The notes under the pieces were generated by a model. It saw nothing but the letters and a program-made list of their open reading frames with translations. It searched no databases and had not been told where the DNA came from. Made by a program: the position numbers and the translations under genes. 64,000 bases of DNA, from positions 256,001-320,000 of the forward strand of contig MTMF02000009.1 in assembly GCA_002011125.2 (NCBI GenBank), given 5' to 3'. Source of the stretch: Candidatus Hydrothermarchaeum profundi (GTDB lineage Archaea; Hydrothermarchaeota; Hydrothermarchaeia; Hydrothermarchaeales; Hydrothermarchaeaceae). Shown here one piece after another: positions 15,523 through 22,109 of the stretch. Within the stretch, counting starts at the first letter, position 1. Every line of letters starts with the position of its first letter.

Positions 15523-15849
15523 ATGGTCTTCGGGGTAGGGCCCAATGAGCTGATGGTTATTCTTATCGTGGCTCTCATACTTTTTGGGCCAAAAAAACTC
15601 CCAGAATTAGCTCGGTCTCTAGGTAAGGCTGTAGCGGAGTTCAATAAAGCTAAGGATGAATTCTCTAAGGAGAGTATGAAAAAGATCATTGAGAACGAGA
15701 TAGAACCAAAGAAAGCATCTTATAGCGAGGTCGTGAAAATCGCAGAAAATTTAGGAATTGATGTCGAAGGAAAAAGTGAGCAAGAACTCCTTAAGGAGAT
15801 AACTCGTAAGACTAGTGAAAAAGCTGTTGCCCAAAAAGATCATGAGTGA
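15523..15849 (+). CDS. tatA: TatA/TatB family subunit (second copy, archaeal C-terminal extension)
   Basis: GPNEL...LFGPKKLPELARSLG; A.NLGIDVEGKS. Confidence 0.92.
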   Translation: MVFGVGPNELMVILIVALILFGPKKLPELARSLGKAVAEFNKAKDEFSKESMKKIIENEIEPKKASYSEVVKIAENLGIDVEGKSEQELLKEITRKTSEKAVAQKDHE

Positions 15850-16567
15850 CGCCTACCTGCCTAGGGATAAGGAACTACCTATCGAAGAGCATCTTATAGA
15901 ACTTCGAAAGAGGCTTCTGGTAATAGTTTTCGCCTTGGGAATAATCACAATAATAGCCTATCCATTTACTGACGAGATAATTTTCGGACTTAGGGATTCT
16001 CTCGTACCTGAAGGAATAAAGATTATAATTCTTAATCCAATAGAATATTTTCTCGCAAGGGCAAAACTTGCTGCCATGATAGCTCTTATCATAGGTATTC
16101 CGCTAGTACTCTACGAGATCTTTAAATTTATGAGGCCGGGATTATTCCCCAGCGAAGAGCGGTTTTTTCTCACGGTTATACCCTCCTCTATTGTATTGTT
16201 CTCTATTGGAGCCACCATATCATATTTCACTTTCACTCCCTTATCCCTGAGGTATTTGATTACTACAACAGAAAGCGTGGCAATTCCAACATTAGTGCTA
16301 GGCAGATTCATTTCTTTCATAACTTTCATGCTTTTGGCTTTTGGATTGATTTTCCAACTTCCTCTAGTGATATGGTTGCTATTGAAGGCCGAACTTATAA
16401 CAGTGCAAGAATTAAAAGAAAAGAGAAAGCTTATTTATATAGGACTTGGGGTAGGAGGGATAATTGTCGCTCCGGATCCTACGCCAATTACTCCATTATT
16501 AGTTGCTATTTCCTTAATTGTAGTTTTTGAAGTCAGCTTATTCTTGGCTGATAAATTAAAAGGTTAA
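15842..16567 (+). CDS. tatC: Twin-arginine translocase TatC (second copy)
   Basis: EHLIELRKRL, F.RPGL, FQLP and PDP motifs; ATG at 15842 is the more likely start. Confidence 0.92.
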   Translation: MSDAYLPRDKELPIEEHLIELRKRLLVIVFALGIITIIAYPFTDEIIFGLRDSLVPEGIKIIILNPIEYFLARAKLAAMIALIIGIPLVLYEIFKFMRPGLFPSEERFFLTVIPSSIVLFSIGATISYFTFTPLSLRYLITTTESVAIPTLVLGRFISFITFMLLAFGLIFQLPLVIWLLLKAELITVQELKEKRKLIYIGLGVGGIIVAPDPTPITPLLVAISLIVVFEVSLFLADKLKG

Positions 16568-16595
16568 TATATGAGAAAATGATATTGTGTAAAAG

Positions 16596-16835
16596 ATGCT
16601 TAAATGCCCAATATGTAAAAAGGAAACTAGGTTAAAGAGAGTTATAGGTGAAGGAGGAGAGATATTAAAAGACTACATATGTGAAAATTGTTATATAGGA
16701 TGGTATATCCCTGAATCAGGCGGTGCTCCAAAAATAAGAGTATCTACCACTCATTCTATAGCTCAGAAACTCTCTGATGAAGAGTTCAAAAAGCTTTTAG
16801 AAAGAATTAGGAAATATGAAGAATCTCAGAAATGA
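16596..16835 (+). CDS. Small zinc-ribbon hypothetical protein
   Basis: CPIC...CENC pair in a 79-aa ORF. Confidence 0.6.
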   Translation: MLKCPICKKETRLKRVIGEGGEILKDYICENCYIGWYIPESGGAPKIRVSTTHSIAQKLSDEEFKKLLERIRKYEESQK

Positions 16836-17218
16836 GGCCTTAGTTTTTCCAAAAGTTGTGGCTTTGGAAGAGCTCCAACGATCTTCTCCACTACCTGGCC
16901 ATTCTTGAATAGGAGGAGGGTGGGTATGCTCATTATGTTAAACAGAGTAGCGGTCTTCTTATTTTCATCCACATTGAGCTTAGCGCAGACAAGCTTGCCT
17001 CTATATTCATTAGCAAGGTCTTCTATAACTGGCGCTACTATTTTACAGGGGTGACACCAGTCGGCCCAGAAGTCTACAAGGACCAACGGATATTTTTTGA
17101 TTACTTCACCAAAATCAGAGTCGGTTACCTTTATAACCCCTTGAGGAAAATCCTGTCCCCTGGCTTTTTTAAGCATCTCCTCCATTTTCTTTTTCTTTAT
17201 CCTTTCCACTTCATCCAT
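16826..17218 (-). CDS. trxA: Thioredoxin
   Basis: VDFWADWCHPCK and SIPT motifs. Confidence 0.95.
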   Translation of the reverse strand: MDEVERIKKKKMEEMLKKARGQDFPQGVIKVTDSDFGEVIKKYPLVLVDFWADWCHPCKIVAPVIEDLANEYRGKLVCAKLNVDENKKTATLFNIMSIPTLLLFKNGQVVEKIVGALPKPQLLEKLRPHF

Positions 17219-17265
17219 GTCTTTTATAAACCCTTAGAGGTCTACATATATAATTTGCGGTAACT

Positions 17266-17991
17266 ATGATGATACTTCACTTTAAAGAGGTAGATTCTAC
17301 AAACGAGGTGGCTAAGAAGTTAGCAGCAATAGGTGCGCCTGAGTGGACTATAGTATCCTCGGACTCACAGACAGAAGGAAAAGGACGCCTAGGCAGAAGA
17401 TGGATTTCACCCCAGGGAGGCCTGTGGATATCCATAGTCCTTAGACCAGATATAGAAGAGTCTAGACTGCCGATAATCCCTATGGTAAGTGGTATATCGG
17501 TTGCAAAAGTATTATGTGATATGTATGGATTACCAGCTAAGTTAAAGTGGCCGAATGATGTGCTCCTAAAAGAGAGAAAAGTATGCGGAATCCTAGCTGA
17601 AGCAGGTGAAAATGTTGAATATGTGGTTGTCGGTATTGGAATAAACGCCAATATAGATATGAACAAATTTCCTGCTCAACTTCGCAACAGTACAACTACT
17701 ATCAGCACAGAACTAAAAAGAGAAGTTGACTTGAATGCATTAAAGATAGGGCTATTAGATCAGTTTAAAGAGGATTATAATAATCTCATAAGACAAGATT
17801 TCTCTATTTTAAAGGAAGAGTGGAGACACCTCTCCTCAACTCTCGGACAGAAGGTTAAAGTGATAACTCCAAAAGAGATCATAGAAGGAAATGCAATCGA
17901 CATTGACGGCGAAGGAGCGCTGCTCATAGAAGTAAGTGGCCGTATCAAAAGGATTTTTTCTGGAGATTGCATTCACTTAAGTAACTTTTAA
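17266..17991 (+). CDS. birA: Biotin-protein ligase (no HTH domain)
   Basis: STN, QTEGKGRLGRRW, KWPND, KVCGIL and GIGIN motifs. Confidence 0.95.
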   Translation: MMILHFKEVDSTNEVAKKLAAIGAPEWTIVSSDSQTEGKGRLGRRWISPQGGLWISIVLRPDIEESRLPIIPMVSGISVAKVLCDMYGLPAKLKWPNDVLLKERKVCGILAEAGENVEYVVVGIGINANIDMNKFPAQLRNSTTTISTELKREVDLNALKIGLLDQFKEDYNNLIRQDFSILKEEWRHLSSTLGQKVKVITPKEIIEGNAIDIDGEGALLIEVSGRIKRIFSGDCIHLSNF

Positions 17992-18018
17992 ATAGAAAAA
18001 CTTAGATTTTGACCTTCC

Positions 18019-18837
18019 ATGGAGATCATAACTTCGTATAGACAAGCTCGTTACAATTTCTATAGATGGAGATACGAATCAGGATTTGTGTATAAATTGG
18101 CATTAGCTTTTATGTTTGCCGGATTGACAGGTATTGGAGCTCAGATAAGGATACCCCTCCCTTTTACCCCAGTGCCAATAACTGGCCAAGTCTTTTTTGT
18201 CCTACTTAGCGGCGTAGTACTTGGAAAATATGGCGGACTAAGTCAAGGAATTTACGCTGGGTTAGGGGGCGCTGGTATACCTTGGTTTAATGGTATGAAG
18301 GGAGGCTGGGGTGTTCTCACAGGCGTTACTGGCGGGTATATTCTAGGATTTATCCTTGCAGCAAGTCTCATAGGATGGTTTGTAGATAACTATACTAGGT
18401 CAAGGACTTTTTCTTTCCAATTATCCCTCATGTTCTTAGGAGTAGCAGTTATATATGGACTGGGATCCTTACAATTCTCGCTTGTGTTAGGTACTGGTTT
18501 CAATGAAACTCTTACAAAAGCTGTTTTACCATTTATTCCTGGAGATATTGCTAAAGCCGTGGGGGTAGTGCTTCTAGCAACTGCTATTCTTCCTAAAGAA
18601 AGCTACAACGGAGAAGTGGATTTTGAGTCTACTTCCCATGATAGGCGCCGCCTCTATATGGCCGGGTTTGTTTTTAGTGGATTACTGACATGTTTCTTTT
18701 TACTTTTGTTCTGGGCTAAAATTGTGAGTTTAGGTCAAGCAAATAATTTAATAGTTTTAAAAAACAGCGCTTGGTTTTCTTTATCAGCATTAATAACAGG
18801 GCTTCTCTCTCTTCATTTTTTAAAACTCCTCAGGTAG
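18019..18837 (+). CDS. bioY: Biotin transporter BioY with C-terminal membrane extension
   Basis: PLPFTPVPITGQ, TGGYILGF and LPFIPGD.AK; adjacent to birA. Confidence 0.9.
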   Translation: MEIITSYRQARYNFYRWRYESGFVYKLALAFMFAGLTGIGAQIRIPLPFTPVPITGQVFFVLLSGVVLGKYGGLSQGIYAGLGGAGIPWFNGMKGGWGVLTGVTGGYILGFILAASLIGWFVDNYTRSRTFSFQLSLMFLGVAVIYGLGSLQFSLVLGTGFNETLTKAVLPFIPGDIAKAVGVVLLATAILPKESYNGEVDFESTSHDRRRLYMAGFVFSGLLTCFFLLLFWAKIVSLGQANNLIVLKNSAWFSLSALITGLLSLHFLKLLR

Positions 18838-18887
18838 ACGCTTAAATAAGAAATATCGCTTGATAAAAAACACTTAAGTAAAATTAG

Positions 18888-19046
18888 TGCGGATTCGGAC
18901 GCAGCCGAAAGGTTTGGCACCGTTTGGTCCGAAGACCTTGGGTGCTTTGCCTTTCAGACAGGTGATACCTCCGGAGAGGCATTCCTGTCGCTCGTAGCGG
19001 TTTATCCGAAGACGAACCGCTGCGAATCACTACACCCGAATCCGCA
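18888..19046 (-). ncRNA. Unassigned structured ncRNA candidate (~158 nt, four-way junction)
   Basis: GC-rich stretch in an AT-rich spacer. It has a 17-bp closing helix with G-U pairs only on the minus strand, three internal helices, two C(UUCG)G tetraloops, a TATA element ~25-30 nt upstream and a T6 tract downstream. Confidence 0.75.
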
Positions 19047-19066
19047 AATAGTTGTTGAATTTTATT

Positions 19067-19080
19067 AGTATATATTTATT
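19067..19080 (-). promoter_or_regulatory. Archaeal TATA box for the ncRNA candidate
   Basis: Minus strand AATAAATATATAC, centred ~27 nt upstream of the predicted 5' end (19045-19046). Confidence 0.55.
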
Positions 19081-19135
19081 GTTATTTGTAAACCTTTACT
19101 TCCTCTGAAGCATGTGGAAAAAATGGTAAGAGATT

Positions 19136-20218
19136 TTATATCCAGTCCTTAGATTCTAATTTCTGAGGCAAATACACATCTGTCATAAACGTTATTCCAT
19201 GCTTGGCTAGTGCCTGGAGTTCCGCCTTTTCTCCTCTGCTTATCATGAGCTGAAGCTCTTTTCTCCATTTCTTGTTATTTTTTATCCAAGGATACTCCAG
19301 CATTTTCTGGGCTTTTTTCAAATCCCATTCAGTCATCTTCAGACGGGCTGCCTTAGGAACATTAAATTTGTCTAGGTCACTTGGGAGTAGACCCAAAAGC
19401 TTTGCACTAGGTACGGCGAGATATGCGCTTTCAAAACTTAGTGAGATGCTTCCTCTCTTATAACTTGAACATATTTGCATGCCATAGCTATCGCTGTCTG
19501 TTAGAACATAAACGGGGAGCTTTTCCTCTTTATTTAATCTCCTTATAAGCCTCCTAGTAGCAATGTCAGGCTGTCCTTTTCCGGTGATTAAGAGACATTT
19601 ATTTTTTTTATGGAAATCTTCTTCTATTAATCGTATTAGTGCGGCATCTTTTTCCACTACTAAAATGTAATCCGCTCCGCAGTCTATGATTTCTACTTCA
19701 TCTATAAATGGGCTTATTGACCAGCCGCCTCTACCAAGACTGTTACAGTTGAATGTATCGTTTCCTTCTCTTAAGGTGAGATCCCCTATGCATACGCCCT
19801 TAGCCGAGGCAACTACTCTTAGGCAGGGACGGGTGACTCCGAGCGTCACTGCGATATCTTCTATTATATTGTCACTAGTTTTTTGGTCCTTATTGAAGAG
19901 CTCTGGATCTTGGTAATAAATCTCGCGTTTAGTCAGATGTTTTTCTCTTTCAGCGCTTTCATAAAGTATGCTCATTACATAAAGCATTTGAGTAAATGCT
20001 GTCACTGTTCCGGTATTATGGAAGCTCCTCTGAGACATGCTTTCTCCAATATAAATCAAATCCTTTTTTTCATCGTAAATAAAATTGTCCGCCCCTCGGG
20101 TGGGAACATTAAAAGCCGGGTTTTTTCTGCTTCTTATGTCTCTTGCTATTCCTTTTGCTACTCGCTTTAGCTCCCTTACAAGCTCGCGTGCATCCATTTT
20201 TTCTTTTATTTTTTTCAT
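19136..20218 (-). CDS. top6A: DNA topoisomerase VI subunit A (Spo11 family)
   Basis: KREIYY catalytic Tyr, Toprim VVEKDA and TDSDSYG, ITGKGQPD.ATR, KAELQAL. Confidence 0.93.
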   Translation of the reverse strand: MKKIKEKMDARELVRELKRVAKGIARDIRSRKNPAFNVPTRGADNFIYDEKKDLIYIGESMSQRSFHNTGTVTAFTQMLYVMSILYESAEREKHLTKREIYYQDPELFNKDQKTSDNIIEDIAVTLGVTRPCLRVVASAKGVCIGDLTLREGNDTFNCNSLGRGGWSISPFIDEVEIIDCGADYILVVEKDAALIRLIEEDFHKKNKCLLITGKGQPDIATRRLIRRLNKEEKLPVYVLTDSDSYGMQICSSYKRGSISLSFESAYLAVPSAKLLGLLPSDLDKFNVPKAARLKMTEWDLKKAQKMLEYPWIKNNKKWRKELQLMISRGEKAELQALAKHGITFMTDVYLPQKLESKDWI

Positions 20219-20219
20219 T

Positions 20220-22109
20220 TTAACCCCCCGTTAAAGTCGCTTGCACAGCTATTGGCCTTCTCCTGCGGATTTCTTGAACCAGTGGCTTATAGATTCTCTC
20301 TTTCTTCTCACCGGTCATTTTAGATATCGATTCCGATACTATCTCAGCATGCTTTTCTAGGAATTCCCTCGCTTTCCCTGAAAGTCTGTGTTTCTCCATC
20401 ATGCTAACATGTTTCCTAAGCTTTCTACTAGCCGCCTGTAATGCCCTTTTTATTTCCTCAGCTATAACATCATCCGCCCCAATCGCCTGTTTAGCTACTC
20501 CTAGATACTTGAGCTGTGGTGATGTAACATGAACTACGAAGATAACAGGAGCGCTTGGAAGTGATCCTTTTTTTCCTAGCTTATAGAGAGACCAGTCAAT
20601 TTCTCTCGCTGTTTGAGTGATGATATCGCTTCCAAACTCATATATAAGGGGAGTGCAATTAGCAATTCTTATTAATTTATCTTGGTCTCTAAGATCCGGA
20701 GAAATCTCCCCCCCATACATACCGAGAACCTGAACCTGAACTGGTCTTCCACTAGTGCTGGTCGGCTTCCTTTCCACATAAACATGTTTCTCCGGGTTAT
20801 AAATCGAGACAAAGCCTCTTATTAAGGTTTTTTTAGGTATGGGCATAAGAGAATCCATTGGTGGCGAAGGAAAAGACATTGACCTCAGAGTTTCAGCGAC
20901 TAGCCTAACTTTTTTTTCATCGTTTAATATCATGTTTACAGTAGTTTTTTCTGTAAAAATCTGCTTCGGTAAAGGTTGACCATCAAGCTTGAATAACTTC
21001 TTCAGTTCATTATTGTCGAGAGACCTAATGTTATTGCTAAGTTTACCGCTTATGTAGAGTTTCGCTGCATAATCGCGATCAATATCTACGTCCCTAACCA
21101 GAGTTTTTAGATAAGCACTAATCTTTTCAGGACTCTTTTTAAGTTCTTTAACCTTCTCACTTTGAGCTATTCTCTTGACAATGTCTCCTGCAAAGAAATT
21201 CTGTTGATCAAAATATTGAAGTATCGTAGCTCTCTCTATAAGCTCTTTTATTTTCTTATCGCCGATCCGGCAAAAGTTCTTTTTAAGAAATCCTGCTAAA
21301 GAAATACTTCTTATCCTAGACTGATATGCTAGCAGATCCTTTAATTGACCTATGTCTACCGAGTTAGGATGTGGAGGAACGGGAGCAGGTATCGGTATTC
21401 CCTCGCTTGTTCTTTTTTCATATTTAGTTATGTTTCCATTTTCTTTTAAGATAAAAGTTATATAAGGATGGATTGCCGCCATTCTCCTAATAAACTCTAT
21501 AATATTACCCCGAGCTCGGGAGTAATCCCCTAAGAGAGTTAGAGAGACTCTAGTTCCATGCTCTGGAAATTCGCCTTCATAGGGCTCTTCAACTACCTTG
21601 GTTACTTTGCCCTTACCATAGTCGTAAACATGGCGATGGGCTATTTTTTCTGTAAAAGTTTTACTTATAATTTCCATAGGCTTACCGGTGCTTTGGCTTG
21701 CATATATAGCGGCAGCTTTCCATCCTATACCCTGCTGAGACCTACTAGCTTTATATTCGATTGTACCTGTGCCACCTGCTCGAACAATGATTTGAACCTT
21801 ATTTTTCGGTATTCCTATTCCATTGTCCTGAATACTGATTTGCAGTTCTCCCCGAGATTTATCAACTACTGAAACGCTTACCATAATTTCAGCATTATAA
21901 TCGTCATTCCCAGTTGACCTCAATAATACCTCTCTAGCCTTATCAATAGCGTCTGCTGCATTTTGAACCCCCTCAACGACTGTTTGAAACGGTGCCCTAG
22001 CCTTTTGCCCGAAACCTGTATCAACTCTTTTTAAAAGTTCTTCAGCGGATTGAAGCCGGATATGGTTATGGATCTGCTCTTCTGCTTTTTTCCTTGAAAT
22101 TTTTTTCAT
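20220..22109 (-). CDS. top6B: DNA topoisomerase VI subunit B, divergent (GHKL ATPase, H2TH, transducer)
   Basis: EGVQNAADA, DNGIGI, SRSQQGIG, HGTRV, PHP.SVD, RIANCTPL and AKQAI motifs. Confidence 0.88.
   Translation of the reverse strand: MKKISRKKAEEQIHNHIRLQSAEELLKRVDTGFGQKARAPFQTVVEGVQNAADAIDKAREVLLRSTGNDDYNAEIMVSVSVVDKSRGELQISIQDNGIGIPKNKVQIIVRAGGTGTIEYKASRSQQGIGWKAAAIYASQSTGKPMEIISKTFTEKIAHRHVYDYGKGKVTKVVEEPYEGEFPEHGTRVSLTLLGDYSRARGNIIEFIRRMAAIHPYITFILKENGNITKYEKRTSEGIPIPAPVPPHPNSVDIGQLKDLLAYQSRIRSISLAGFLKKNFCRIGDKKIKELIERATILQYFDQQNFFAGDIVKRIAQSEKVKELKKSPEKISAYLKTLVRDVDIDRDYAAKLYISGKLSNNIRSLDNNELKKLFKLDGQPLPKQIFTEKTTVNMILNDEKKVRLVAETLRSMSFPSPPMDSLMPIPKKTLIRGFVSIYNPEKHVYVERKPTSTSGRPVQVQVLGMYGGEISPDLRDQDKLIRIANCTPLIYEFGSDIITQTAREIDWSLYKLGKKGSLPSAPVIFVVHVTSPQLKYLGVAKQAIGADDVIAEEIKRALQAASRKLRKHVSMMEKHRLSGKAREFLEKHAEIVSESISKMTGEKKERIYKPLVQEIRRRRPIAVQATLTGG

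What the first reader, a model, noticed from the sequence alone, without database searches (positions are those of the whole stretch)
18865..19080. Unassigned ~158-nt four-way-junction RNA gene with UUCG tetraloops
Seen on the minus strand: closing helix P1 GCGGAUUCGGGUGUAGU / GCUGCGUCCGAAUCCGC (17 bp, four G-U wobbles that would be A-C mismatches on the plus strand). P2 (18992-19025) is capped by C-UUCG-G and P3 (18957-18989) by C-UCCG-G. P4 (18907-18955) is GAAAGG-CAAA-GCACC-CAA-GGUC-UUCG-GACC-AAAC-GGUGC-CAAA-CCUUUC, with stacked near-symmetric A-rich internal loops. A TATA element sits ~27 nt upstream and a T6 tract ~18 nt downstream; the element is GC-rich in an AT-rich spacer with no ORF. 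I cannot see the hallmark motifs of tRNA, 5S, SRP, RNase P or hammerhead RNAs. Inference: an independently transcribed, thermostable structured RNA of an unknown class; the CAAA loops may be protein-binding or tertiary-docking sites.
Basis: partly seen in the sequence, partly recalled or inferred. Interest (0 to 1): 0.85.

Follow-up and report, generated by a model that had tools for sequence, protein, structure and literature searches.

The report
New archaeal four-arm RNA gene
A small, very stable, cross-shaped RNA gene that matches no described RNA family is conserved across one order of uncultured archaea, and its promoter carries a box resembling the sites where the replication initiator protein binds DNA.

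Summary
It is single-copy in its genome. Neither it nor 18 relatives match any of 4227 Rfam families. The genome has normal RNase P, SRP and 5S RNAs elsewhere.

Covariance models found 25 full-length copies in 21 of 35 genomes of the same archaeal order. They found none in 3 other genomes of the phylum or in 113 other archaea. Of 61 base pairs, 55 show compensatory changes, and 90% of cells pair against 34-46% when partners are slid. G-U excess fixes the strand. All 25 copies have a BRE/TATA about 24 nt upstream, and 24 of 25 an oligo-T directly downstream.

New here: a conserved upstream module contains a box like the origin recognition boxes (ORB) next to orc1/cdc6 in these genomes.

Function is unknown. 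My best guess is a protein-binding scaffold RNA whose transcription is controlled by an Orc1/Cdc6-type protein. No expression data were available.

The parts
18888..19046 (-). Structured RNA gene, 159 nt as modelled. Transcription probably starts at G 19045, after the conserved pyrimidine U 19046.
   Evidence: MFE four-way junction with z -8.7. Full-length matches of models R1-R3 in 25 places. 55 of 61 pairs have compensatory changes.
19028..19046 (-). P1 5' strand (closing helix). The terminal UGCG is nearly invariant in the family.
   Evidence: (pairs 2-4 with 178-180: 21, 21 and 19 of 21 unchanged).
18888..18905 (-). P1 3' strand, ending in the conserved CGCA.
18991..19026 (-). P2 arm: basal helix, small internal loops, apical helix, UUCG loop.
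   Evidence: Across helices 3 and 4, 13 of 14 pairs have changes on both sides.
18957..18989 (-). P3 arm with UCCG (UNCG-type) loop.
   Evidence: Across helices 5 and 6, 11 of 13 pairs have changes on both sides.
18906..18956 (-). P4 arm. Its base helix GAAAG/CUUUC is the most sequence-conserved helix. Then come two internal loops (CAAA/CAAA and CAA/AAAC here) and a UUCG loop.
   Evidence: helices 7-9, 16 of 16 pairs with changes on both sides; the commonest pair kept in 16-17 of 21 at the five GAAAG/CUUUC pairs. One search shows the loop letters are not conserved.
19066..19083 (-). Archaeal-type promoter: purine-rich BRE-like stretch plus TATA-like AAATATATAC, centred about 28 nt upstream of G 19045.
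   Evidence: Read. An A/T-rich TATA-like stretch sits at the same distance in all 25 family loci.
19084..19111 (-). ORB-like box. The core CAGAGGAAG (19099-19107) is followed by TAAAGG, directly upstream of the BRE/TATA.
   Evidence: The core is at a fixed distance (60-61 nt upstream of UGCGG) in 16 of 25 loci. This box scores 15.6 bits against a matrix built from boxes next to orc1/cdc6 in 5 genomes, above the 99.9th percentile of genome background at 10.9. One search gives the coordinates.
19112..19123 (-). Distal part of the conserved upstream module (TTTTTTCCACATG). It is one of the TCCA/GCA repeats spaced about 10 nt apart in the family.
   Evidence: Alignment of 25 upstream regions. The module is unique in the genome: nhmmer finds only itself at E 1.4e-10, and the next hit has E 0.46.
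18865..18884 (-). Oligo-T stretches (T4 at 18881-18884, T6 at 18865-18870), the likely archaeal termination signals.
   Evidence: A T-rich run starts within a few nt of the CGCA end in 24 of 25 loci; L027 is the exception.

Best explanation
SHOWN. This is a stand-alone gene for a compact RNA of about 160 nt. The RNA is almost entirely helical: a near-perfect four-way junction whose three arms are each capped by a UNCG tetraloop. It belongs to a family with no Rfam model and found in none of my four literature searches. So far the family is confined to one order of an uncultured archaeal phylum. Selection acts on the fold. It also acts on a few sequence blocks: the GCG/CGC terminal pairs, the GAAAG/CUUUC helix at the base of P4, and the UNCG loops.

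INFERRED. With almost no conserved single-stranded letters, the RNA is unlikely to act by base-pairing or as a ligand sensor. It most likely works as a stable protein-binding scaffold, the RNA part of a small RNP. The invariant terminal stem, and the conserved P4 base with its adjacent internal loop, would be the recognition surfaces.

Transcription starts about 24 nt downstream of a BRE/TATA and stops at the oligo-T that directly follows the 3' CGCA. Immediately upstream of the BRE/TATA sits a box of the same type as the origin recognition boxes next to orc1/cdc6 in these genomes. I infer that an Orc1/Cdc6-family protein (the initiator or its shorter paralogue) binds there. That would couple the RNA's level to the replication or cell-cycle state.

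The confidence given (0.45) is for the whole statement including the inferred mechanism. For the SHOWN part alone (a real, stand-alone structured RNA gene of a new family) I would put it at about 0.9.
For: - Fold: -86.3 kcal/mol, z -8.7.
- Family: models R1, R2 and R3 find full-length (1-159) matches in 9 of 61, 18 of 35 and 21 of 151 genomes. That is 25 copies, all in the same order.
- Covariation: 55 of 61 pairs have changes on both sides and 90.2% of cells pair, against 34-46% when partners are slid. 0 of 500 shuffles reach any measure. An independent MAFFT + RNAalifold run recovers P1, P3 and the base and apex of P4; 24 of its 41 predicted pairs are compensated.
- Strand: 202 G-U cells against 36 A-C cells.
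- Not a known RNA: no Rfam match for the window or for 18 homologues. RNase P, SRP and 5S RNAs are present elsewhere in the genome. ARAGORN calls no tRNA here.
- Own transcription unit: the TATA-like stretch and the oligo-T are conserved (TATA in all 25 loci, oligo-T in 24 of 25), although the neighbouring genes differ.
- Few conserved unpaired letters: only the three tetraloops pass 75% conservation among unpaired columns.
- ORB-like box, position: the core CAnnGGAAR sits 60-61 nt upstream in 16 of 25 loci, against a background of 0.0086 per 50 nt.
- ORB-like box, genomic origin: in the window's genome the GC-skew minimum, the main orc1/cdc6 gene and two TTTCCAGTGGAAAT dyads coincide at contig C9 about 480-484 kb.
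- ORB-like box, same type as origin boxes: boxes next to orc1/cdc6 in four other RNA-bearing genomes read TTCCAnnGGAAR, and in three of the 16 elements TAAAGGGG follows. The window's box shares GGAAGTAAAGG with one of them.
- ORB-like box, score: a matrix built only from those 16 origin-side elements scores the RNA upstream regions above the 99.9th, 99th and 95th background percentile in 12, 16 and 20 of 25 loci.
- Precedent: an Orc1/Cdc6 paralogue binds a promoter motif and regulates genes in Sulfolobus (abstract of PMC6061795).
Against: - No expression data: no RNA run holding the stretch was listed. The transcript, its ends and its abundance are all inferred.
- No protein partner is known, and no gene is consistently linked to the RNA.
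- The RNA is missing from 14 of 35 genomes of the order. These include five that are 96-99% complete and were searched on their own. It is therefore not essential for the order, or it is too diverged to detect there.
- Both Orc1/Cdc6 paralogues are present in four of those five RNA-less genomes and the main copy in the fifth, so the paralogue does not track the RNA.
- Against the published pan-archaeal ORB consensus, the window's box matches only 11 of 23 positions, which is background level. The similarity is clear only against the lineage's own origin boxes.
- The origin elements were picked with the same core pattern, so the matrix partly builds that core in.
- 5 of 25 loci do not exceed the 95th percentile. 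They include L022, L027 and L028, one copy in each of three two-copy genomes.
- Only one box orientation is present and there is no inverted partner nearby. Binding by a different factor cannot be excluded.
Confidence: 0.45

Rival explanations
1. Replication-linked RNA. The ORB-like box marks a site where the initiator assembles, and the RNA itself takes part in replication initiation or its control. This would be analogous in logic to vertebrate Y RNAs, or to transcripts that activate or prime origins.
For: There is an ORB-type box directly upstream of an A/T-rich stretch. In 3 of 25 loci the upstream neighbour is Topo VI subunit A, and in one locus the downstream neighbour is an RPA-like OB-fold protein. 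The RNA has a long terminal stem like Y RNAs. Y RNAs are described as essential for initiation of chromosomal replication in vertebrates (abstract listing of PMC4702372).
Against: GC skew shows one minimum, at about 480 kb of C9, roughly 205 kb from the RNA gene at about 275 kb. There is a single box orientation with no inverted partner in the spacer. No TROVE/Ro gene is in the genome. No Y_RNA Rfam match was found. The RNA is absent from 14 of 35 genomes of the order.
Confidence: 0.12
2. tRNA-like minihelix mimic. The terminal GCGG.../...CCGC-A end imitates an acceptor stem with its discriminator base. RNase P, tRNase Z or the CCA-adding enzyme would then process the RNA, and it would act as a tRNA mimic or decoy.
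For: The 5' G pairs with C and is followed at the 3' side by an unpaired A before the U-tract. The three terminal pairs are nearly invariant. The four-way junction has a cloverleaf-like topology.
Against: Neither ARAGORN nor Rfam calls a tRNA here. P1 is 17-19 bp, and no T-loop, D-loop or anticodon-like loop exists because all arms end in UNCG tetraloops. The resemblance of the end to an acceptor stem is my own reading, not a test.
Confidence: 0.08
3. Self-cleaving or otherwise catalytic RNA built on a four-way junction, like the hairpin or twister-sister ribozymes.
For: It has a four-way junction with internal loops in adjacent arms.
Against: No match to any Rfam ribozyme family at E up to 10 in the window or up to 1 in 18 homologues. 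The internal-loop letters are not conserved, whereas ribozyme cores are. The junction has only 0-3 unpaired letters.
Confidence: 0.04
4. A cis element of the neighbouring genes: a 3'-UTR structure, bidirectional terminator or antisense regulator for bioY or the top6BA operon.
For: It lies between the convergent 3' ends of bioY and top6A. BioY lies downstream in 5 of 25 loci and top6A upstream in 3.
Against: The other loci have unrelated neighbours such as arginase, radical SAM, MscS, DUF4416 and RACo. The RNA still keeps its own TATA and, in all but one locus, its oligo-T in them. A 160-nt junction with 55 covarying pairs is far more than a terminator needs.
Confidence: 0.03
5. A diverged or fragmented known RNA (a piece of SRP, RNase P or rRNA), or a mobile-element RNA.
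For: None beyond the general shape. Several MAG copies lie on short contigs or near contig ends.
Against: Complete RNase P, SRP and 5S RNAs are found elsewhere. There are no local Rfam matches. The RNA is single-copy. No integrase, transposase or viral genes lie beside any copy examined. None of 110 pattern-matching viral contigs holds a member.
Confidence: 0.03

Closest known systems
Y RNA / bacterial YrlA (Ro60-Rsr associated small RNAs)
   Same: Small (about 100-160 nt), stand-alone RNA gene with a simple promoter and a U-tract end. It has a long terminal stem formed by the 5' and 3' ends with conserved terminal sequence, and is presumed to act as a protein-bound scaffold. Vertebrate Y RNAs are linked to replication initiation (abstract listing of PMC4702372).
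   Different: No Rfam Y_RNA match. No TROVE/Ro60 gene in the genome. The topology is a four-way junction with three UNCG-capped arms rather than a stem with a large loop or a tRNA-like module.
Archaeal origin recognition box (ORB) bound by Orc1/Cdc6
   Same: The promoter-upstream box has the core CAnnGGAAR followed by TAAAGG, as do boxes next to orc1/cdc6 in the same order. It also resembles the consensus printed in Table 2 of PMC4153887.
   Different: It sits 205 kb from the GC-skew minimum, with a single orientation and a weak G-string. It directly abuts a BRE/TATA of an RNA gene, so it looks like a regulatory site rather than an origin.
Orc1-2 regulon of Sulfolobales
   Same: It is a precedent for an Orc1/Cdc6 paralogue that binds a promoter motif and regulates transcription (abstract of PMC6061795).
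   Different: That motif is described as a hexanucleotide in DNA-damage gene promoters of a different phylum. No RNA gene target is described in the abstract I read, and no binding was tested here.
Hairpin and twister-sister ribozymes, and U1 snRNA (four-way-junction RNAs)
   Same: A near-perfect four-way junction with internal loops in the arms.
   Different: No Rfam match. The internal loops are not conserved in sequence. No single-stranded functional segment is present. The U1 comparison is recalled, not tested.
GC-rich stable RNA genes found as GC islands in AT-rich archaeal genomes (Hgc-type RNAs in Rfam)
   Same: It was found the same way: a GC-rich structured island (0.54-0.58) in an AT-rich spacer (0.27-0.34).
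   Different: None of the Rfam families matched. That the Hgc RNAs were found this way is recalled, not from a call.

Membership tests
tRNA (RF00005) | Cloverleaf with a 7-bp acceptor stem, D, anticodon and T loops; detected by ARAGORN or the Rfam model. | tested here: not met
   ARAGORN finds only tRNA-Phe and tRNA-Lys elsewhere in the window. Rfam has no tRNA match at 18700-19250 even at E up to 10. All three arms end in UNCG tetraloops.
5S rRNA / archaeal SRP RNA / archaeal RNase P RNA | Match to RF00001, RF01857 or RF00373. The genome would otherwise lack that RNA. | tested here: not met
   No match at the locus. The genome has RNase P RNA (241.9 bits), SRP RNA (244.9 bits) and 5S rRNA (96.9 bits) elsewhere on contig C9.
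Four-way-junction ribozymes (hairpin, twister-sister) | Conserved catalytic internal-loop nucleotides; match to the Rfam models. | tested here: not met
   No Rfam match in the window (E up to 10) or in 18 homologues (E up to 1). Internal-loop letters vary freely among 21 members. Cleavage itself is not testable here.
Y RNA / YrlA | Conserved Ro-binding terminal helix; a Ro60/Rsr (TROVE) protein encoded in the genome. | tested here: not met
   No TROVE (PF05731) match in the 97.65%-complete genome. No Y_RNA match.
MITE / REP-type repeat | Many dispersed copies in one genome. | tested here: not met
   There is one full copy in 2.19 Mb. The two other matches are 15 and 22 nt long with E above 1.
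Riboswitch / cis-regulatory leader | Lies in the 5' leader of a regulated gene; has a conserved unpaired ligand pocket. | tested here: not met
   It lies between two convergent 3' ends. Junction linkers are 0-3 nt, and no unpaired column outside the tetraloops reaches 75% conservation.
Archaeal ORB (for the upstream box only) | Dyad core of the TTCCAnnGGAA type. | tested here: inconclusive
   The window has cTTCAGAGGAAG, in which the 5' half is imperfect. 16 of 25 family loci have CAnnGGAAR at a fixed position. The window matches the published consensus at only 11 of 23 positions.
Archaeal ORB (for the upstream box only) | Purine/G-string 3' of the dyad. | tested here: inconclusive
   The window has TAAAGGTTT, while the best origin boxes have TAAAGGGGT. 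The AAGG part is kept and the G-string is weak.
Archaeal ORB (for the upstream box only) | Located at a replication origin next to orc1/cdc6, usually as inverted pairs. | tested here: not met
   The RNA gene is at about 275 kb of C9. The skew minimum, orc1/cdc6 and the paired dyads are at 480-484 kb. There is no inverted partner in the spacer.
Archaeal ORB (for the upstream box only) | Bound by Orc1/Cdc6. | not testable with these tools
   This needs a footprint or EMSA with the recombinant proteins.

The most novel reading that the evidence does not exclude
A previously undescribed class of archaeal small RNA whose gene is wired to the replication initiator. An Orc1/Cdc6 protein would bind an origin-type box at the RNA's promoter. 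The ultra-stable four-way-junction RNA would then act in replication or cell-cycle control, for example by binding or titrating initiator, helicase-loading or junction-binding proteins. It would be an archaeal counterpart, in logic though not in ancestry, of the Y RNA link to eukaryotic replication initiation.
Probability: 0.15. Interest if true: 0.9.

Novelty: categorically new. Interest (0 to 1): 0.78.

Why it matters
Few structured RNA classes are known in archaea beyond the universal ones (tRNA, rRNA, RNase P, SRP, guide sRNAs, CRISPR). This is a well-supported new family: 25 copies from genomes plus one from a metagenome, with 55 of 61 pairs covarying. It has a defined promoter, terminator and fold, and it comes from an uncultured lineage seen in subsurface, marine and hydrothermal-vent metagenomes (labels).

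The origin-type box at its promoter gives a concrete hypothesis that can be tested cheaply: does Orc1/Cdc6 bind it? If so, it would be, as far as my four literature searches show, an undescribed case of an archaeal initiator-family protein controlling a structural RNA gene.

The alignment can seed an Rfam family and improve annotation of these MAGs. In them the gene often lies on short contigs or near contig ends.

Tried and rejected
- A BLAST-type DNA search of 40 relatives found nothing. Only covariance models reached the homologues.
- Rfam at gathering and at permissive thresholds gave only noise at the locus. That noise was a 13.4-bit PtaRNA1 match on the plus strand and weak C/D-box matches outside the element.
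- I asked the protein atlas about Topo VI-A only to learn the taxon. It gave no usable taxonomy, so I name the lineage only by its handles. Two homologue-bearing records are titled 'Methanobacteriota archaeon'.
- Sequencing runs: 3 DNA holders and no RNA holder listed.
- Pattern scans were mostly chance matches:
  - 2 of 77 genome contigs stretches were real, and both were already known;
  - 0 of 110 viral stretches were real.
- Idea dropped: that the upstream AAAGG motif pairs with the 3' strand of P4 as an alternative structure. Some members (L008, L022 and the g18 genus) change both in step. Others (L018, L019, L029, L012) do not. This was judged by eye.
- Idea dropped: that the upstream module is shared by other stable-RNA promoters. 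It is absent upstream of the 45 tRNAs and of the RNase P, SRP and 5S genes, and it is unique by nhmmer.
- Idea dropped: that the presence of the RNA tracks the shorter Orc1/Cdc6 paralogue.
- The other genome sites that match the box regex and were checked (5 of 21 besides the RNA promoter and the oriC box) all lie inside ORFs.
- Supplements of papers were not opened. Table S1 of PMC4153887 and any supplementary ncRNA lists of the preprint read could in principle list a related RNA.
Full report
**1. The observation**

Read on the minus strand, window 18888-19046 is a 159-nt GC-rich island. Its GC is 0.54-0.58, against 0.27-0.34 in the flanks. It lies in the 298-nt spacer between the convergent 3' ends of a BioY gene (18019-18837, +) and the Topo VI A/B operon (19136-20218 and 20220-22109, -).

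- a 17-19 bp closing helix P1;
- three arms: P2 (18991-19026), P3 (18957-18989) and P4 (18906-18956);
- each arm capped by C-UUCG-G or C-UCCG-G.

The fold energy is -86.3 kcal/mol. Shuffles average -49.8 +/- 4.2, so z = -8.7, and 0 of 200 shuffles fold as well. The plus strand folds nearly as well (-81.0), so energy alone does not choose the strand.

**2. It is not a known RNA and not a repeat**

- Rfam 15 at gathering thresholds finds only two tRNAs elsewhere in the window.
- At E up to 10, nothing meaningful overlaps the element.
- ARAGORN agrees.
- The genome (2.19 Mb, 19 contigs, 97.65% complete) holds the element once.
- The genome has ordinary RNase P RNA, SRP RNA and 5S rRNA elsewhere.
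- A permissive Rfam scan of 18 homologous loci again gives no family at the RNA positions.

**3. It is a conserved family with very strong covariation**

A nucleotide search found nothing in 40 relatives. A covariance model built from the single sequence plus its MFE structure (R1) found full-length matches in 8 other genomes of the same order. Two rounds of rebuilding followed (R2, R3).

With R3 there are 25 copies in 21 of the 35 genomes of the order held here. Four genomes show two copies each. There are none in the 3 remaining genomes of the class and phylum; the phylum has only 38 genomes in this collection. There are none in 113 other archaeal genomes.

Five RNA-less genomes of the order that are 96-99% complete were searched on their own. 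They gave only a 13.6-bit fragment.

On the 21-sequence alignment:
- 90.2% of 1234 cells form standard pairs, against 34-46% when the 3' partners are slid by 1-3 columns;
- 55 of 61 pairs show changes on both sides;
- 0 of 500 column shuffles reach any of the five measures.

That alignment was fitted to the model, which favours the structure. An independent MAFFT + RNAalifold run on 10 sequences still recovers P1, P3 and the base and apex of P4, with 24 of 41 predicted pairs compensated. G-U cells outnumber A-C cells 202 to 36, so the window's minus strand is the RNA strand.

One copy (L026) lacks the 3' strand of P4 and may be decaying. The two copies in G022 look like the same locus from two strains, because their flanks are nearly identical.

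**4. What is and is not conserved**

Lengths range from 145 to 164 nt. Sequence conservation is concentrated in four places:
- the ends (UGCG... and ...CGCA; the three terminal pairs are unchanged in 19-21 of 21);
- the GAAAG/CUUUC helix at the base of P4 (the commonest pair kept in 16-17 of 21);
- single C-G pairs in P2 and P3;
- the three UNCG tetraloops.

Junction linkers are 2, 1, 0 and 0 nt in most members.

An internal loop is kept at that place and is mostly purine-rich, but its letters vary freely. P1 often carries one mismatch about 12 pairs from the end.

An RNA with almost no conserved single-stranded letters is poorly suited to antisense pairing or ligand sensing. That is why I favour a protein-binding scaffold. 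This is an inference.

**5. It is its own transcription unit**

In all 25 loci a BRE/TATA-like stretch lies at a fixed distance upstream of UGCGG. Its TATA ends about 21-25 nt before the G. In 24 of 25 loci a T-rich run begins within a few nt after CGCA; L027 is the exception. In the window these are 19066-19083 and 18881-18884, plus the T6 tract at 18865-18870.

The neighbours are not conserved:
- BioY lies downstream in 5 loci and Topo VI-A upstream in 3.
- Elsewhere the flanks are unrelated housekeeping genes: PIN, HEAT-repeat, flavin reductase, arginase, MscS, radical SAM, ParA-like, RPA-like OB fold, DUF4416, CBS, THUMP, RACo, methyltransferase, JAB and diphthamide synthase.
- No mobile-element genes are present.

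**6. A new observation: an origin-type box at the promoter**

Upstream of the TATA, most loci share a module of about 40-55 nt that the flanking genes cannot explain. In the window's genome it is unique. nhmmer finds only itself at E 1.4e-10, and the next hit has E 0.46. It is absent upstream of the 45 tRNAs and the RNase P, SRP and 5S genes.

Its promoter-proximal part has the core CAnnGGAAR at a fixed position, 60-61 nt upstream of UGCGG, in 16 of 25 loci. The background is 0.0086 per 50 nt. In 9 of 25 loci it continues N3-4-AGG, where the background is 0.0003. Only 23 such sites exist on both strands of the whole genome.

This is the core of the archaeal origin recognition box. I first recalled the consensus, then read it in Table 2 of PMC4153887.

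In the window's genome three things coincide:
- the cumulative GC-skew minimum, at about 480 kb of contig C9;
- the main orc1/cdc6 gene, at C9:482668-about 483920;
- two TTTCCAGTGGAAAT dyads, at C9:484059-484114.

I take that as oriC.

I then fetched the regions upstream of the main orc1/cdc6 gene in four other RNA-bearing genomes. Their boxes read TTCCAnnGGAAR, and in three of the 16 elements TAAAGGGG follows. The window's box (19084-19111, cTTCAGAGGAAGTAAAGGttt) shares the 11-mer GGAAGTAAAGG with one of them.

A matrix built only from those 16 origin-side elements scores the RNA upstream regions as follows:
- above the 99.9th percentile of genome background in 12 of 25 loci;
- above the 99th in 16 of 25;
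- above the 95th in 20 of 25;
- the window's own copy scores 15.6 bits, against 10.9 for the 99.9th percentile.

Caveats:
- The origin elements were selected with the same core pattern.
- The background is one genome.
- Against the published pan-archaeal consensus the window's box matches only 11 of 23 positions, which is background level. The family as a whole is enriched: 9 of 25 loci match at 14 or more of 23 positions, against 3.2% of background windows.
- In the window the box occurs once, in one orientation, with no inverted partner in the spacer.
- The gene lies about 205 kb from the skew minimum, so this is not a typical origin.
- One copy in each of three two-copy genomes (L022, L027, L028) lacks the box.
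- Both Orc1/Cdc6 paralogues also occur in RNA-less genomes.

An Orc1/Cdc6 paralogue acting as a promoter-binding regulator has a precedent in Sulfolobus (abstract of PMC6061795).

**7. Reading**

Shown:
- a real RNA family not described in any source I searched;
- its fold, strand, promoter and terminator signals and distribution;
- a conserved upstream module that resembles the lineage's own origin boxes.

Inferred:
- that it is transcribed from G 19045 to the U-tract;
- that it works as a protein-bound scaffold;
- that an Orc1/Cdc6-type protein controls it.

The rivals are a direct role in replication, a tRNA-like minihelix mimic, a ribozyme, a cis element of the neighbours, and a diverged known or mobile RNA. 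Each is listed with its evidence. None is favoured by the tests I could run.

**8. Limits**

- No RNA data set holding the stretch was listed.
- Literature searches and passages of one 2026 preprint on prokaryotic noncoding families turned up no description of such an RNA. These searches cover only the held library, and supplements were not opened.

Noticed in passing
G000:C9:482668-484114 (outside the window): Predicted chromosomal replication origin. The cumulative GC-skew minimum at about 480 kb, the main orc1/cdc6 gene, and two TTTCCAGTGGAAAT dyads 45 nt apart just upstream of it all coincide.
   Followed up: partly
G000:C9:1321583, minus strand (outside the window): ARAGORN labels one of the 45 tRNAs as tRNA-Pyl. 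If real, this lineage may encode pyrrolysine. I did not look for pylS or pylBCD genes, nor check the anticodon.
   Followed up: no
window 18725-18792, minus strand: A weak C/D-box-like match (snoU2-30, 26 bits against a gathering score of 60, E 0.009) lies antisense inside the 3' part of the BioY ORF. It is probably chance.
   Followed up: no
L026:1501-1648 (G023:C83:4060-4207): This family copy lacks the 3' strand of the P4 base helix and scores only 38-48 bits. It may be a decaying gene or an assembly error.
   Followed up: partly
L027, L028, L022 (G010:C4, G011:C12, G027:C23): Three genomes carry two diverged copies of the RNA; one copy in each (L022, L027, L028) lacks the ORB-like box (scores -14.0, -7.9, -5.2) while its partner scores 14.2, 3.5 and 8.3 bits. 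They keep a TATA; L022 and L028 also keep an oligo-T, but L027 has none right after CGCA. These may be paralogues under different control.
   Followed up: partly
L009, L010, L012, L013, L007 (short MAG contigs): Five family copies lie within about 20-460 nt of a contig end, on contigs of 1.6-3 kb. The locus seems hard to assemble in MAGs, so its absence in draft genomes should be read with care.
   Followed up: no
L027:123-497: Three tRNA genes cluster about 1 kb upstream of the second RNA copy in G010.
   Followed up: no
window 15815-18837: Gene run TatC, a 79-aa ORF without a Pfam match, thioredoxin (minus strand), biotin-protein ligase (BirA-like) and BioY. The biotin ligase and BioY genes are adjacent on the same strand, so they may form a biotin uptake and ligation pair.
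   Followed up: no
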